From positions 9,669 to 73,668 of the IMG/VR virus record IMGVR_UViG_3300033181_000085: a stretch of 64,000 nt of DNA; one strand, written 5' to 3'. The first letter of the stretch is position 1; each line of letters begins with the position of its first letter. This document shows, piece by piece, positions 5,334 through 10,702 of the stretch. This stretch comes from a virus. The translations under genes and the position numbers were made by a program. The notes beneath the pieces are model-generated. The model was given only the letters and a program-made list of their open reading frames with translations, did not search any database and was not told where the DNA came from.

Positions 5334-5702
5334 TCATCGTTCAAGCTCCCGACATACACCGTTTATAAGCTCTGCTAGCTTTTCGGTCGTAATATTTGTG
5401 CCAAGGTTCAACTTCTCGCCAACGTAACCCGCAAACTTTTCAGTACCATTCAGCTCAAAGCCGAACATGCCGAAGTGCGATACTGCTACAAAGAGATCGG
5501 TCATGGAGTGCATACCTCGTTGCAGGTGGCCGTATTGTAGAGGCTTGTATGCCAGCAGAATATCTAGTTGCGTCCCTTCCTGATCGGTCCAGGCGAAGAT
5601 TATAGGGTCGTGGTTGCTTAAGTGGCTTGCAAGACCTTTATATGTCTTTTCGCTATTGAATACCGTCTGATATTCGTCCTGGTCAACGGTAGCCGGGTTC
5701 AT
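5334..5702 (-). CDS. Phage hypothetical protein
   Basis: 122-aa ORF, ATGA overlap upstream. Confidence 0.6.
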   Translation of the reverse strand: MNPATVDQDEYQTVFNSEKTYKGLASHLSNHDPIIFAWTDQEGTQLDILLAYKPLQYGHLQRGMHSMTDLFVAVSHFGMFGFELNGTEKFAGYVGEKLNLGTNITTEKLAELINGVCRELER

Positions 5703-5798
5703 TTGACGCTAATCCTAATCTGCCCTAAGTACCCATTTTTGACTCTCGCTAATATCTCGTCACGCATCTTCCATCCCTTCTCATTGTTATCTTCAGCA

Positions 5799-6172: not shown

Positions 6173-6574
6173 GCGGGGTTCCTGATTAGGGTGATACGTT
6201 GAACTCCAGTGCACGTCGCCAGCGGTAATGCTCGCTGCATAGTTTTGCTTACGCCAGGTGTTATCGTTATGTGCGAGGCACGCCCGACAACTAGCACTTG
6301 GTTTCCTGAATACGTCTGCTCTGATTACTACTGACGATGTGAGCTGGAGTTGTTAATGAACTTGGTTCTTTGGCTGTTCACGAGTCGAACGTGATTACTT
6401 CCTTTCAGCCCATGTGAGCATTTTTCTGCCTTACTCGGGGCGGTAGTCTATCGTAATACCGGCATGTAGCCACGGCTGATTAAATCTGCTAGCTCATAAA
6501 CTGTGACTTGCCCTGTGTATTTCCCTTGCGCGTTTTTCATGTCGTGTTCCTTTCGTTTATTTGTCTATAAACTA

Positions 6575-8007: not shown

Positions 8008-8315
8008 TGTATCAGAAGACAGAATCCGATAAAGACAATAAGTATCATCAGACCGAAAACGAAGTTAAAGACGTGGTAGGCGGCAGCGGTGACAAGGATA
8101 GCAGTCACGCCGAGAGCTCCCATGATTATAGCCGTTTCGGTTTTAGACAGTATCGGTTGGGATACTGGTAAGGTCTGGCGTGACGTTGCTGGCTGGCGAC
8201 GTGTAGTCGGACGTGGATTCGGTAGCTGACGGCTGGATGTCCGTGGTTTGACCGTTTTCGATATTTTGCGACGCGTGTGTTTCTGCATAATGCCTGCATA
8301 TGTAGTATATGGCAT
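8004..8315 (-). CDS. Small membrane protein (true start possibly internal)
   Basis: Hydrophobic C-terminal helices; its stop codon is supplied by the IS end. Confidence 0.45.
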   Translation of the reverse strand: MPYTTYAGIMQKHTRRKISKTVKPRTSSRQLPNPRPTTRRQPATSRQTLPVSQPILSKTETAIIMGALGVTAILVTAAAYHVFNFVFGLMILIVFIGFCLLIQ

Positions 8316-8973
8316 TAGCGTCTAAATCACTGTTTAGCTCGTTGGTAAGCTGCCTATCATGCTTCATCATGCCGATAGCTTCATAGACCACTGCCAGCTG
8401 CTCGTCCGTGAAGCGAACACGTAATGGTTTCAGACCGTCGTCATCTTTGGGTTGCTTCTGGTCTGGTTCCGGTTCAATAGTTGGCTCGACTCCCACTTGT
8501 TCGAGTAACTTGATAATCTCGTCTTCCGACTGGCCGGTAAGGGCCAAAAGTTCGTCGCCGTTTTCGAGCTGCGACAACTCATAATTCACTTGAGCTAATA
8601 GGTCTTCGTCCCAACTTCCTTCTATACGGTTAGCGCTAATCGCCGCAGCTGCTTCGGTTCCCTCATCCCAATCGACGAGTCTGTACGGGTAGAGCTCATT
8701 GTCGTGCTCAACATAGCCTATCGCAATAGTACCCTGCTTATTGGGCGAGTCGAAACGCTGCGAGATTACTACGCGCTTCTGACCGCTCAAGTTCTCAAAA
8801 GCGCGTTTTCGCATGTGGCCGCCGACTAAGTGGCCGGTACGCTGGTTCATGATTAAGGAGCTCAAATCGCCGAATTTTTGGATTGAACGTTTCAGTGCCT
8901 CAAAATCTTGTTCACTTATTTTTCGCGGGTTTTTTGGGTTGGGCTTCAGGTCGTCAAAGTTTGCTAATTCCAT
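8143..8973 (-). CDS. ParB/Srx-like N-terminal domain protein
   Basis: DLKPNPKNPRKIS…LKRSIQKFG…LVGGHMR…AISANRIEGSWDEDLL. Confidence 0.8.
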   Translation of the reverse strand: MELANFDDLKPNPKNPRKISEQDFEALKRSIQKFGDLSSLIMNQRTGHLVGGHMRKRAFENLSGQKRVVISQRFDSPNKQGTIAIGYVEHDNELYPYRLVDWDEGTEAAAAISANRIEGSWDEDLLAQVNYELSQLENGDELLALTGQSEDEIIKLLEQVGVEPTIEPEPDQKQPKDDDGLKPLRVRFTDEQLAVVYEAIGMMKHDRQLTNELNSDLDANAIYYICRHYAETHASQNIENGQTTDIQPSATESTSDYTSPASNVTPDLTSIPTDTV

Positions 8974-9064: not shown

Positions 9065-9793
9065 ATGAAGAGTATATCAAAAGTATGTGATGTTGAGGGA
9101 TGTAACTCGACGGCTATTCGAAGATCCCTATGCTCGGCTCATTATCACAGATTAGTACGCTACGGGTTACCATGTGGTAAACCCTCACCTAAGTTAAGAC
9201 GTTCAAGGCCGGTCTGTAGCATAGACGGTTGTGAAAACTTCCAGAATGCACATGGCTTGTGCGGCCTACATGAAATGCGAAAAAAGAGAACCGGCGATCC
9301 ACTTAAAATTACAAGAGTCGTGACTGCGCATAAGATGTCTAGATCGGGGACATATAGATCGTGGCAGAAGGCTAAAGATCGCTGCTACAACCCTAACAAC
9401 CTACGCTATGCTGACTACGGCGGGAACTCAGTCGTGATGTGTGCTGCTCTTAAAAACAGCTTCATAGCTTTCTATAAATTGATGGGCGATAGACCACCGT
9501 ACACCACTTTAGACAGGAGAGATGCCGCCAGCAATTACAGTTGTGGTGAGTGTAGCGAGTGCGTTGCGAATGGGTGGGCAATGAACATGCGTTGGGCAGA
9601 TGCATCTACCCAGTCTCACAATAAGCGCACGTGGGATAGGTATAAGGGGATAGAAAGGAACGGTTCTGGCTATGCAGCTCGGATTCAGCGTAAAGGTGCT
9701 CGTTATTATTTAGGTACTTTTCGAACAGAAGACGAAGCTTTTAGAGCATACAAGAATAAGTCAATTGAGCTTTTCGGAGAGGAGAACTTGTAG
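9065..9793 (+). CDS. Free-standing HNH homing endonuclease with N-terminal Cys/His repeats and AP2-like C-terminus
   Basis: CxxxGC…LCxxH x2; YRSWQKAKDRC.NPNN..YADYGG…TLDR…MRWADASTQSHNK; YYLGTFRTEDEAFRAY. Confidence 0.85.
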   Translation: MKSISKVCDVEGCNSTAIRRSLCSAHYHRLVRYGLPCGKPSPKLRRSRPVCSIDGCENFQNAHGLCGLHEMRKKRTGDPLKITRVVTAHKMSRSGTYRSWQKAKDRCYNPNNLRYADYGGNSVVMCAALKNSFIAFYKLMGDRPPYTTLDRRDAASNYSCGECSECVANGWAMNMRWADASTQSHNKRTWDRYKGIERNGSGYAARIQRKGARYYLGTFRTEDEAFRAYKNKSIELFGEENL

Positions 9794-9799
9794 CCGTAA

Positions 9800-9950
9800 T
9801 AAACAAAATCAGGGCTTGCGAGAAGCCCTGATTAGGTGAAGTTTTGTTTTCAGCCATTTCTGGCTAGGGTTTTTGATGTTTGTTTTTGTGAACGTTTTGG
9901 TTTTGTGTGTTGGTGTATTTTGGTTTTTTCTCTTACCGCCCGGTAAGATA
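9800..9950 (-). ncRNA. Candidate A/C-rich small RNA with its own promoter and terminator
   Basis: Promoter TTGCAA(9979-9984)-17-TACTAT(9956-9961); 7-bp hairpin 9931-9948; 11-bp terminator stem 9807-9833 plus U tract. Confidence 0.55.
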
Positions 9951-10100
9951 CCCATATAGTAGCCTAAGCAAATGCCACTTGCAAGAGGTAAATAATTGTT
10001 ACATGCCATACATTTTATTTATACTGTGGATAGTTTTTCAGCGTCTCTTTGGGCCTCTGAACACATTTTTTATAGTTTCTGCATAAAATAGCATTTTTTG

Positions 10101-10568
10101 TCACGACCGCAAAAATCGCAGCACGTCCGCCCGAACACGAACCGGCTCGCGCCACAACCGCTTTGCTTTAATTCTATAAATCTGCCAGCCTCGTTCGCGC
10201 AAATAATCTTCGCGTTCCTGGTCGCGCACTACGTCCATGCGTGACGTGTGAAATGCCTGACCATCGATTTCTATAACTTTGTGGTAAGCCGCATTGGGTG
10301 TTGCGAAATCTGCGAAAAACGGACCGATCCGCACTTCTCTTTCAATTAGCTCGCTTTTCAACACTCGCCCCATCCACAGCCAGGTCAACGGAAAGCCTGT
10401 TCTTATTGAACGTATAAAAGGAACCGGCAATGACCAGCCGCCCATGATCCGGACGAAACGCACCTCAGCTGGCGATGGATAGCGAAGCCTAAGCTTGCGT
10501 CGTCGGTTACCCCGCCAGCGCACGTACCGGTCATGCATTTTGCGACGTGGCTTTTGGTATGGGCCCAT
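10101..10568 (-). CDS. DUF559 / Vsr-like PD-(D/E)XK endonuclease domain protein
   Basis: REVRIGPFFADFA…VIEIDGQAFH…DQEREDYLRERGWQIYRI. Confidence 0.8.
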   Translation of the reverse strand: MGPYQKPRRKMHDRYVRWRGNRRRKLRLRYPSPAEVRFVRIMGGWSLPVPFIRSIRTGFPLTWLWMGRVLKSELIEREVRIGPFFADFATPNAAYHKVIEIDGQAFHTSRMDVVRDQEREDYLRERGWQIYRIKAKRLWREPVRVRADVLRFLRS

Positions 10569-10702
10569 GTTACTCACTATACCCGAAATCCTGTTAATAT
10601 TTGCTGCTAAGCGTCATAAACTTCCACTTTCCTAATGCCCAAAAAGAATAGATATACGAGAGGCAAACAGTAGCCCTCATAAACATAAAAGGAGCATGAA
10701 TC

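What the first reader, a model, noticed from the sequence alone, without database searches (positions are those of the whole stretch)
9800..9984. Promoter- and terminator-bounded A/C-rich small RNA
Seen on the minus strand: TTGCAA-17-TACTAT promoter, a 7-bp hairpin (tcttacc/ggtaaga), then ~70 nt almost devoid of G and U (aaaaaaccaaaatacaccaacacacaaaaccaaaacgttcacaaaaacaaacatcaaaaaccc), a small hairpin and an 11-bp terminator with U tract. The only ATG abuts the -10 box and would fall outside the transcript. Inference: a ~150-nt noncoding RNA with an unstructured CA-rich core, suited to act as a protein sponge/decoy or as an antitoxin-like or anti-defence RNA; it converges on the HNH gene end.
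Basis: partly seen in the sequence, partly recalled or inferred. Interest (0 to 1): 0.6.

Follow-up and report, generated by a model that had tools for sequence, protein, structure and literature searches.

The report
Phage copy of Saccharibacteria small RNA
The A/C-rich stretch is a real non-coding RNA gene, and it is a phage-carried version of a small RNA that nearly every genome of the tiny parasitic Saccharibacteria keeps in one copy, so the virus appears to bring its own look-alike of a core host regulator whose job nobody yet knows.

Summary
On the minus strand lie TTGCAA-17-TACTAT, a 7-bp hairpin, a 64-nt tract of 91% A+C (the most extreme in the 79.7-kb phage), a small hairpin and an 11-bp terminator.

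The unit is conserved. Thirteen further uncultured phage contigs carry the same promoter, 5' hairpin, G-poor A/C tract and terminator. It always lies just after a DUF559 nuclease gene and before a ParB-like/methylase operon. Terminator stems covary while the loop word CUCGCA is kept. No reading frame is conserved, so it is non-coding.

The new point is host homology. A model built only from the phage copies finds one match per genome in 53 of 61 relatives of a Saccharibacteria MAG. A host-only model finds 89 of 151 genomes of that class but 7 of 151 across the phylum, and it finds the phage copies back. The host RNA (about 80-150 nt, usually upstream of comM) is absent from Rfam. Other agents of this scan had noted it on other DNA, but not the phage link.

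The most likely mechanism is molecular mimicry of the host RNA. The partner is unknown. Hfq and Rho were not found in the host clade. No expression data could be obtained.

The parts
9979..9984 (-). -35 box TTGCAA
   Evidence: Read directly. A TTGYNN word stands at the same position, with a 17-nt spacer (16 in L005, L006 and L035), in 13 related phage loci.
9956..9961 (-). -10 box TACTAT. The predicted start is the A at 9949, 7 nt downstream.
   Evidence: L003 has the near-identical TACTATATGGAT-A.
9931..9948 (-). 5'-terminal hairpin UCUUACC-GGGC-GGUAAGA
   Evidence: Folds. A hairpin starting at +2 is predicted in all 14 phage members.
9867..9930 (-). Unpaired A/C-rich tract, 64 nt (A39 C19 G2 U4), with several A4-6 runs punctuated by C
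   Evidence: Equivalent tracts of 29-67 nt, 80-98% A+C and 0-2 G occur in all members.
9851..9866 (-). Small hairpin UAGCCA-GAAA-UGGCUG. It is the counterpart of the host RNA's 5' hairpin and the start of the host-like core (9873..9799).
   Evidence: fold; alignment to the host-only model R2, 32.3 bits, E 0.0011.
9838..9850 (-). Single-stranded AAAACAAAACUUC. It is the counterpart of the host's invariant CAAAAACAAAAA element.
9807..9833 (-). Terminator hairpin: 11 bp with apical loop CUCGC (9822..9818). The apex GGCUUCUCGCAAGCC (9827..9813) is identical to that of a host RNA (L165).
   Evidence: The TCG of the loop is invariant in 14 of 14 phage members.
9799..9806 (-). U-tract (UUUGUUUA), the predicted 3' end
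10101..10577 (-). DUF559 / MTES_1575 (Vsr-like) nuclease gene, directly upstream on the same strand. No terminator was predicted between it and the RNA gene.
   Evidence: It is present upstream of the RNA gene in 13 of 13 testable phage loci.
9065..9793 (+). HNH endonuclease gene, convergent. It is an insertion between the RNA gene and the ParB-like gene, specific to this phage.
   Evidence: It is absent at this place in the 13 relatives.
8143..8973 (-). ParB-like N-terminal domain protein, the conserved downstream neighbour. In the relatives it is fused to, or followed by, a DNA methylase or a Mom-like gene.

Best explanation
The locus is a free-standing gene for a non-coding RNA of about 150 nt. 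It is the phage-borne member of a small-RNA family whose chromosomal form is a single-copy, class-wide gene of Saccharibacteria.

Shown:
- The phage unit has its own sigma-70-type promoter, a hairpin at the 5' end, a G-poor A/C-only single strand, and a GC hairpin with the conserved apical word CUCGCA followed by a U-tract.
- The last 75 nt (9873..9799) align to the host RNA. The host RNA has a 5' hairpin, then the invariant single strand CAAAAACAAAAA, then a hairpin with loop UUCUCGCAG.

Inferred: the phage RNA works by presenting the same two conserved surfaces to whatever the host RNA binds. These surfaces are the A-run/C single strand, present several times over in the phage copy, and the C-rich apical loop. 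The phage RNA would thereby add to, replace or out-compete the host RNA during infection or lysogeny. This is molecular mimicry of a host regulator.

The partner, RNA or protein, is unknown. The A/C-only make-up guarantees a structure-free platform, because A and C cannot pair with each other. The phage carries a large serine recombinase, so it is probably temperate. Its host is probably a Saccharibacterium.
For: Phage family:
- 14 members share the layout -35/17 nt/-10/TSS, 5' hairpin, A/C tract and terminator, although the neighbouring proteins are only 38-60% identical.
- The terminator helix has compensatory changes at 8 of 8 pairs. 85% of cells are paired, against 31-48% when the register is slid. 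The loop TCG is invariant.
- Model R1 finds exactly these 14 in 452 kb and only one in the window's genome.

Not coding:
- No small-protein relative of the 66-aa ORF turned up among 1.84 billion representatives.
- Frames starting at the conserved GUG give 9-73 aa. Five of them run past the terminator. The GUG is missing in the window and in L007.
- Host homologues begin AGC/AGU.

Host homology:
- R1, built from phage sequences only, hits one place in 53 of 61 relatives of the MAG titled 'Candidatus Saccharibacteria bacterium'.
- The host-only model R2 hits 89 of 151 genomes of its class, always once, and 7 of 151 across the phylum.
- R2 recovers 11 of 14 phage copies at E < 0.25, the window's at 32.3 bits and E 0.0011.
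- Exact shared words of 14-17 nt include AAAAACAAAAACGTCTC, TCAAAAACTCCACTTT and GGCTTCTCGCAAGCC.
- In the host, the helix is paired in 100% of 390 cells, with 8 of 10 pairs changed on both sides.
- In long host forms the CUCGC hairpin is internal rather than the terminator, so it is functional in its own right.

Independent unit: the host RNA and comM each have their own promoter, and the phage ParB operon has its own promoter.

Catalogues and print: no Rfam match for the phage or host form, and no paper found.
Against: - There is no transcript evidence.
- The promoter is only an 8 of 12 match to consensus.
- Host assignment is indirect. It rests on RNA homology plus one phage contig binned in one MAG. 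The phage-type DUF559 was found in only that MAG among 401 class genomes.
- Nothing shows whether the phage RNA competes with, supplements or merely duplicates the host RNA.
- Host lineages themselves have A/C-rich long forms, so the long A/C tract need not be a phage-specific 'sponge' expansion.
- No partner was identified. A quick look for sites complementary to the loop gave nothing consistent.
- Alignment A8 was fitted to the model, which favours pairing counts.
Confidence: 0.6

Rival explanations
1. Selfish-module reading. The DUF559 (Vsr-like) nuclease is a homing-type endonuclease that has lodged beside a conserved RNA gene and travels with it. The RNA gene is kept mainly as the nuclease's conserved landing or target site. 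Its RNA either does just what the host copy does or does nothing special for the phage.
For: - DUF559 sits immediately upstream of the RNA gene in 13 of 13 testable loci. This includes 3 loci found through ParB alone.
- Both DUF559 and the RNA gene are missing from the other roughly 68 ParB loci.
- Insertions occur between the RNA gene and ParB (window, L049) but never between DUF559 and the RNA gene.
- The nuclease domain resembles 3hrl and, weakly, the homing enzyme I-Bth0305I, 3r3p.
- An earlier scan note describes a DUF559 gene riding another phage RNA gene (e1-5944375; a lead only).
Against: - DUF559 has diverged in step with its neighbours (38-60% identity). It is present in every member, unlike the patchy spread typical of homing genes.
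- The RNA keeps its own promoter, covarying helices and conserved loop, which indicates selection on the RNA itself.
- No cleavage site is known.
Confidence: 0.15
2. It encodes a small basic K/T/N-rich protein. The candidates are the 66- or 48-aa frame in the window, or a near-leaderless frame from the conserved GUG at +2 in the relatives.
For: - Open frames exist.
- 12 of 14 members have GUG at +2.
- Genes of the presumed host often look leaderless.
Against: - A/C-only sequence cannot contain stop codons, so open frames are expected there by composition alone.
- Frame lengths are 9-73 aa and five run through the terminator.
- The window and L007 lack the GUG. The window's ATGs lie upstream of the predicted start or inside a hairpin.
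- There is no Shine-Dalgarno sequence.
- No small-protein homologue was found among 1.84 billion representatives, and there were no Pfam or PHROG hits.
- Host homologues start AGC/AGU, and the GUGA pairs with UCAC in the 5' hairpin.
Confidence: 0.05
3. It is a sponge for a classical single-strand RNA binder. One form is an Hfq distal-face (ARN)n sponge or class II small RNA like AgvB or CrcZ. The other is a rut-like decoy for Rho.
For: - The tract is A-rich with many A-A-N triplets, C exceeds G, it is unstructured, and it is followed by a terminator with a U tail.
- AgvB is a phage-encoded precedent with ARN motifs and a CACAACA word (PMC4104026).
Against: - The Hfq domain was not found in 41 of 41 relatives of the presumed host, and the Rho RNA-binding domain was not found in 31 of 31. 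Control genomes rang in both searches.
- This rival survives only if the host assignment is wrong.
Confidence: 0.05
4. It is only the 3' untranslated region and terminator of the DUF559 message, or it is an attP-type remnant of the host RNA gene used for integration. In either case it has no function of its own as an RNA.
For: - No terminator is predicted between the DUF559 stop and the RNA gene.
- Phages often carry pieces of host RNA genes at attP.
- The phage has a serine recombinase.
Against: - The unit's own promoter is conserved in 14 of 14 members.
- The host homologue stands alone without DUF559.
- The phage copy is full-length and diverged, with at most 17 nt of exact identity to any host copy. 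It is not a 3' fragment.
- The recombinase lies about 14 kb away. It is of the serine type, which, from general knowledge, needs only a few bases of identity.
Confidence: 0.05

Closest known systems
Chromosomal small RNA of Saccharibacteria upstream of comM. It is not in Rfam 15. Here it is captured by model R2. Other agents of this scan noted it on bacterial genomes (e1-2093554, e1-2122815, e1-1071581, e1-2090139, e1-2071497).
   Same: Shared features: own promoter, hairpin at the 5' end, a single-stranded A5-C-A4-5 element, a GC hairpin with apical CUCGCA(A/G)G, a U-tract, and A/C-rich unpaired stretches. The phage-only and host-only covariance models detect each other's members. Exact shared words reach 14-17 nt.
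   Different: - It is carried on a phage next to a DUF559 nuclease gene rather than next to comM.
- It has an extra 5' hairpin and a 64-nt A/C tract ahead of the host-like core.
- The host's conserved 5'-hairpin loop UGAAUAAAAA is not kept.
- Its -35 box is TTGCAA, where the host has TTGACA.
AgvB/AsxR, the prophage-encoded 'anti-sRNAs' of enterohaemorrhagic E. coli (Tree et al. 2014, PMC4104026)
   Same: Both are phage-encoded, terminator-ended small RNAs with an A-rich, C/A-containing single strand that imitates a host RNA partner to rewire host riboregulation.
   Different: AgvB imitates the mRNA target of the host small RNA GcvB and works on Hfq. Here the phage RNA imitates the host small RNA itself, and Hfq was not found in the presumed hosts. 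No base-pairing partner is known.
Protein-sequestering small RNAs with A-rich 'CA motifs' (CrcZ/CrcY of Pseudomonas). Named from my own knowledge and from earlier scan notes.
   Same: Repeated A-rich, C-punctuated unpaired motifs on a small RNA.
   Different: CrcZ is about 400 nt and acts through Hfq/Crc. The size, the architecture and, apparently, the protein repertoire are all different here.
Phage-borne copies of host RNA genes in general: phage tRNAs and tmRNA, and RNA anti-CRISPRs that imitate CRISPR repeats. Named from my own knowledge.
   Same: A virus carries its own version of a host non-coding RNA.
   Different: The RNA copied here is a regulatory-type small RNA of unknown function in an ultra-small episymbiotic bacterial lineage. 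I found no report of a phage copy of such an RNA.

Membership tests
Saccharibacteria comM-upstream small RNA family (undescribed; model R2) | Significant score against a covariance model built only from chromosomal members | tested here: met
   Window 9873..9799 scores 32.3 bits, E 0.0011, in a 150-kb search. 11 of 14 phage copies are recovered. In the converse direction, the phage-only model R1 finds the host RNA once per genome in 53 of 61 genomes.
Saccharibacteria comM-upstream small RNA family (undescribed; model R2) | GC hairpin whose apical loop carries (Y)CUCGCA(A/G)G, with covarying stems | tested here: met
   The window apex GGCUUCUCGCAAGCC is identical to that of host L165. The loop TCG is invariant in 14 of 14 phage copies. 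Compensatory changes occur at 8 of 8 pairs in the phage set and 8 of 10 in the host set.
Saccharibacteria comM-upstream small RNA family (undescribed; model R2) | Hairpin followed by a single-stranded A5-C-A4-5 element | tested here: met
   The host CAAAAACAAAAA is invariant in 19 of 19 sequences. The window has GAAAAAACCAAAA after hairpin 1 and GAAAACAAAAC after hairpin 2.
Saccharibacteria comM-upstream small RNA family (undescribed; model R2) | Chromosomal, single copy, upstream of comM | tested here: not met
   The window copy lies in a phage between the DUF559 and HNH/ParB-like genes. It is therefore filed as a phage-borne homologue, not as the chromosomal gene.
Hfq-dependent class II small RNA / AgvB-type anti-sRNA | Host encodes Hfq. 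The RNA has ARN repeats plus a terminator U tail. | tested here: not met
   The RNA features are present. Hfq (PF17209) was not found in 41 of 41 relatives of the presumed host, with controls positive.
Rho-binding (rut-like) decoy | At least 60 nt of unstructured RNA with C exceeding G, and Rho present in the host | tested here: not met
   The tract qualifies (C19, G2 in 64 nt). Rho_RNA_bind (PF07497) was not found in 31 of 31 relatives, with controls positive.
Type III toxin-antitoxin RNA antitoxin (ToxI-like) | Tandem direct repeats of the RNA unit, followed by an endoribonuclease toxin gene | tested here: not met
   There are no tandem repeats in 9700-10150. The neighbours are a DNA-nuclease-type DUF559 gene, an HNH gene and a ParB-like gene, and there is no PADLOC system hit.
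Any Rfam 15 family | Match to a curated covariance model | tested here: not met
   No match covers the locus at E <= 10. Nothing matched the host RNA at E <= 1.
Small protein gene | Conserved reading frame with a start signal and with homologues | tested here: not met
   frames are not conserved in length or presence, there is no SD, and there are no homologues.
Bacterial SRP RNA (considered because Rfam SRP models found nothing in 5 host genomes) | Long helix with a symmetric and an asymmetric internal loop and a GNRA-type tetraloop (domain IV) | tested here: not met
   Both hairpins of the host and phage RNAs are short, perfect helices without internal loops. RF00169 and RF01854 do not match. 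The domain IV features are from my own knowledge.

The most novel reading that the evidence does not exclude
Phages of Saccharibacteria carry a multivalent look-alike of the one small RNA that almost every Saccharibacteria chromosome keeps, and they use it to take over or titrate that RNA's still unknown partner. This would be the first virus-host RNA-mimicry pair in the candidate phyla radiation. It would also give a natural dominant 'mutant' with which to find out what this undescribed core RNA does. The strictly linked DUF559 nuclease may form a functional module with the RNA gene.
Probability: 0.3. Interest if true: 0.8.

Novelty: new variant of a known kind. Interest (0 to 1): 0.68.

Why it matters
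Saccharibacteria are ultra-small episymbionts with about 1-Mb genomes and very few known regulators. In the genomes searched they appear to lack Hfq and Rho. Yet they keep one promoter-to-terminator small RNA in a single copy across the class. It is in no RNA catalogue, and I found no paper on it.

A family of phages that carries its own version says three things:
- The RNA is important enough for a virus to copy.
- The conserved elements shared by host and phage, the A5-C-A5 single strand and the CUCGC loop, are the functional surfaces.
- These uncultured phages probably infect Saccharibacteria, which is a host assignment made from an RNA.

Some Saccharibacteria can now be grown and genetically manipulated. 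The phage RNA therefore offers a direct experiment: express it and see which host process changes. It also extends the idea of phage 'anti-sRNAs' and RNA mimicry beyond enterobacteria.

Tried and rejected
Searches that found nothing:
- An exact-word scan for the terminator, and a single-protein DUF559 scan of viral contigs, returned nothing.
- A 15-mer scan (TAGTGATGAGCAGCC) gave 27 loci. All but one were chance matches.
- There are no relatives among cultured phages by DNA or by DUF559 protein. RecT and ParB hits were only distant.
- A TnpB tblastn against plasmids gave no host clue.

Ideas tested and dropped:
- C/D-box-like or hammerhead-like reading of GUGAUGA: by eye only, and dropped because the window lacks the word.
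- tRNA anticodon-loop mimicry by CUCGCAA: the stem geometry does not fit, and ARAGORN finds no tRNA in the window.
- Pairing between the 5' end and the terminator loop (lead from e1-3426228): only 4-5 nt and inconsistent.
- Kissing partners complementary to the loop, sought in phage loci and host genomes: no consistent site.
- Hfq sponge and Rho decoy: the proteins were not found in the host clade.
- SRP RNA identity: the architecture does not fit.
- attP: the recombinase is about 14 kb away and the RNA copy is full-length.
- 'The A/C tract is a phage-specific expansion': softened, because long A/C-rich host forms exist.

Counts that include unpublished genomes: the tallies include two genomes flagged unpublished (G011, G023). 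Without them reads 51 of 59. No sequence from them was used in an alignment, a model or this report.

Full report
**1. The observation**

- TTGCAA (9984..9979), a 17-nt spacer, and TACTAT (9961..9956).
- A 7-bp hairpin UCUUACC-GGGC-GGUAAGA (9948..9931).
- 64 unpaired nucleotides (9930..9867) made of A39 C19 G2 U4.
- A small hairpin (9866..9851).
- An 11-bp terminator (9833..9807) followed by a U-tract.

The A/C tract is the most extreme 65-nt window of the whole 79,714-bp virus record: 59 of 65 A+C, against a genome mean near 0.51 with sd 0.07. The 149-nt RNA folds much better than shuffled versions (z = -5.1).

Two details need correcting. The promoter is only an 8 of 12 match to consensus and fell below the scan's threshold. 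The ATG beside the -10 box is not the only ATG.

**2. Surroundings**

The window is part of an IMG/VR virus record.
- Upstream on the same strand lies a 158-aa DUF559/MTES_1575 (Vsr-like) nuclease gene (10101..10577).
- Downstream and convergent lies an HNH endonuclease gene (9065..9793).
- Next comes a ParB-like gene (8143..8973, minus strand) and a TnpB gene.
- No terminator is predicted between the DUF559 stop and the RNA unit.
- Rfam has no match here, even at E <= 10.
A large serine recombinase lies outside the window, so the phage is probably temperate.

**3. A conserved phage RNA gene**

DUF559 homologues at only 38-47% identity led to loci in viral contigs, one MAG and one metagenome. 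Every one carries the same unit just downstream of the DUF559 gene. The unit consists of:
- A -35 box TTG(C/T)NN, a 17-nt spacer, and a -10 box TANNNT.
- An A about 7 nt further on, as the predicted start.
- A hairpin starting at +2, usually AGUGA...UCAC.
- An unpaired A/C-rich tract.
- A GC-rich hairpin with a large loop (Y)CUCUCGCAAG, followed by a U-tract.

A search through the ParB-like neighbour, independent of DUF559, gave 80 loci and added four more members. The family now has 14 distinct members.

Key measurements on the 14 members:
- All fold into the same three-part shape. Linkers are 29-67 nt, 80-98% A+C, with only 0-2 G.
- In the alignment of the 14, the loop TCG is invariant.
- All 8 scored terminator pairs show changes on both sides. 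85% of cells are paired, against 31-48% when the register is slid.
- A covariance model of the 14 (R1) finds exactly these and nothing else below E 0.1 in 452 kb, and finds one copy in the window's genome.

**4. Not a protein gene**

- The 66-aa ORF has no small-protein relatives among 1.84 billion representatives. Only three low-complexity hits to long proteins appeared. There are no Pfam or PHROG matches.
- An A/C-only sequence cannot contain a stop codon, so open frames are expected there.
- Frames from the conserved GUG at +2 are 9 to 73 aa. Five run through the terminator. The GUG is absent in the window and in L007. There is no Shine-Dalgarno sequence.
- The GUGA pairs with UCAC in the 5' hairpin, and the host homologues begin AGC/AGU.

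**5. Linkage**

- DUF559 precedes the RNA gene in 13 of 13 loci with enough upstream sequence. This includes the three loci found only through ParB.
- The remaining roughly 68 ParB loci lack both DUF559 and the RNA gene.
- Insertions occur between the RNA gene and ParB: the HNH gene in the window and about 800 nt in L049. None occurs between DUF559 and the RNA gene.
- The ParB/methylase operon has its own TTGACA-type promoter downstream of the terminator, so the RNA is not simply that operon's leader.

**6. The key result: a host homologue**

One phage locus (L035) lies on a contig of a MAG titled 'Candidatus Saccharibacteria bacterium'. Searching that 1.1-Mb genome with the phage-only model R1 found a second match on another contig. 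It consists of TTGACA-17-TACCAT, a 5' hairpin AGCACUU/AAGUGCU, the single strand CAAAAACAAAAAGG, and a terminator AACAACGAC-UCCUCGCAG-GUCGUUGUU plus U8. It lies just upstream of a ~500-aa gene that earlier scan notes name comM; my Pfam check of it failed on a coordinate error and was not repeated.

How widespread it is:
- R1 finds one such place in 53 of 61 relatives of that genome. The tally includes two unpublished genomes; without them it is 51 of 59.
- The 19 aligned host sequences are about 80 nt. CAAAAACAAAAA is invariant and the loop is CUUCUCGCAGG.
- A host-only model (R2) matches 89 of 151 genomes sampled evenly across the class, never more than once per genome. Several matches are on near-complete chromosomes of 0.8-1.3 Mb. 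Across the phylum it matches only 7 of 151.
- R2 finds the phage copies back: 11 of 14 at E < 0.25, with the window at 9873..9799, 32.3 bits and E 0.0011.
- Phage and host copies share exact words of 14-17 nt. Lineage-specific words such as AAAACUCCAC occur both in some host lineages and in phages L038 and L083. Generic terminators would not give that pattern.
- The host helix is paired in all 390 cells, with 8 of 10 pairs changed on both sides. That alignment was fitted to the model.

How the window RNA maps onto the host RNA: in the R2 alignment, the window's 'small hairpin' plus GAAAACAAAAC plus the terminator correspond to the whole host RNA. The window RNA is therefore a host-like core preceded by an extra hairpin and the 64-nt A/C tract.

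Caveat on 'expansion': host lineages vary too. Some have longer C/A-rich linkers. Some have a roughly 150-nt form in which the CUCGC hairpin is internal and is followed by an A/C-rich tail and a separate terminator. The A/C-rich single strand is thus a family trait, and the CUCGC hairpin is more than a terminator.

Status of the host RNA:
- It is in no Rfam family, and I found no paper on it.
- Other agents of this scan had already noted it upstream of comM in Saccharibacteria genomes (e1-2093554 and others).
- None of those notes linked it to phages.

**7. Mechanism**

Shown:
- An independent, conserved, structured, non-coding unit in the phages.
- Homology to a class-wide single-copy host RNA.
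- Two elements shared by host and phage: a single-stranded A-run/C element next to a hairpin, and a C-rich apical loop.

Inferred: the phage RNA engages the same partner as the host RNA and thereby adds to, replaces or competes with it. With 8 runs of four or more A, against a median of 3 in host forms, the window RNA would be a multivalent version.

Unknown: the identity of the partner.
- Hfq was not found in 41 relatives and the Rho RNA-binding domain was not found in 31, with positive controls in both searches. The usual readers of A-rich or C-rich single strands are therefore unlikely.
- Quick searches for sequences complementary to the loop gave nothing consistent.

An A/C-only alphabet cannot form any Watson-Crick or wobble pair with itself. 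That explains why the tract is unstructured. From general knowledge of RNase E-type cleavage preferences, it may also make the tract a poor nuclease substrate.

**8. Rivals**

- (a) The DUF559 gene is a homing-type nuclease that rides the conserved RNA gene. The strict linkage favours this. The universal presence and parallel divergence of DUF559, and the selection evident on the RNA itself, argue against it being the whole story.
- (b) A small protein. This is disfavoured, as set out in section 4.
- (c) An Hfq or Rho sponge. The proteins were not found in the presumed hosts.
- (d) A 3' UTR or attP remnant. The unit has its own conserved promoter, the copy is full-length and diverged, and the serine recombinase lies about 14 kb away.

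**9. Limits**

- There is no expression evidence.
- The host assignment rests on the RNA homology and on one binned contig. The phage-type DUF559 occurs in only that MAG among 401 class genomes.
'Saccharibacteria' comes from the record title of L035 and from earlier scan notes.

**10. Verdict**

The specific sponge, antitoxin and anti-defence ideas are not supported.

What is really there is a phage-borne homologue of an undescribed core small RNA of Saccharibacteria. This is a new variant of the known theme of phage RNA mimicry, and it offers a practical handle on an unknown host RNA.

Noticed in passing
L002:6452-6510 (+); L007 about 5500-5560 (+); L005 about 6400-6460 (-); L006 about 6380-6440 (-); L035 about 5720-5790 (-): A second hairpin lies 1-1.8 kb downstream of the RNA gene in five related phages. 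It carries the same tCTCGCAAG word in an internal loop, followed by an inner AAG...CTT hairpin. It has no U-tract. It was not found in the window, where CTCGCAAG occurs only once.
   Followed up: partly
window about 10040-10062 (-), and the equivalent places in L002-L007, L038 and L039: Operator-like words lie between the DUF559 stop and the RNA promoter. Examples are AAAAAATGTATACA (a palindrome) and TGTGTTCA...TGAACACA. They may be a regulator binding site.
   Followed up: no
L004, L035, L038 and L005, downstream of the RNA terminator: The promoters of the ParB/methylase operon have TTGACA, a 19-nt spacer containing CCCCTGCCC, and then T(A/G)CTAT. Several CCCCTG/CCCCTA words recur there.
   Followed up: no
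Host loci L127, L132, L136, L137 and L139, downstream of the host RNA: The comM genes of these Saccharibacteria look leaderless. TTGCAA/T, 17-18 nt and TAAAGT are followed 6-7 nt later by the ATG, with no Shine-Dalgarno sequence.
   Followed up: no
Genomes G001, G018, G061, G248 and G348: The Rfam SRP RNA models (small RF00169 and large RF01854) hit nothing in five Saccharibacteria genomes, although they ring in most control genomes. The SRP RNA of this clade may be too divergent for the current models.
   Followed up: partly
Relatives of G001 (41 and 31 genomes): Neither the Hfq domain nor the Rho RNA-binding domain was found in any genome searched, with positive controls in both searches.
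   Followed up: yes
G012:C1:232547-232700 (L192); also L186 and L190: A long form of the host RNA, about 150 nt. In it the CUCGC hairpin is internal and is followed by an A/C-rich tail of about 37 nt and a separate terminator.
   Followed up: partly
G036:C16:13522-13691: Two adjacent matches to the phage RNA model in one host genome, possibly a tandem duplication of the host RNA gene.
   Followed up: no
Genome C1:4790-5221 (-), outside the window: A large serine recombinase (521-aa open frame). No tyrosine integrase was found. The phage is probably temperate.
   Followed up: partly
Genome C1:78609-78673 (+), outside the window: The second most skewed tract of the genome, G/T-rich on the plus strand. 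As RNA from the plus strand it would be complementary in composition to the A/C tract. This was not examined.
   Followed up: no
L049:1670-2500: About 800 nt are inserted between the RNA terminator and the ParB-like gene in this relative. This parallels the HNH insertion in the window.
   Followed up: no
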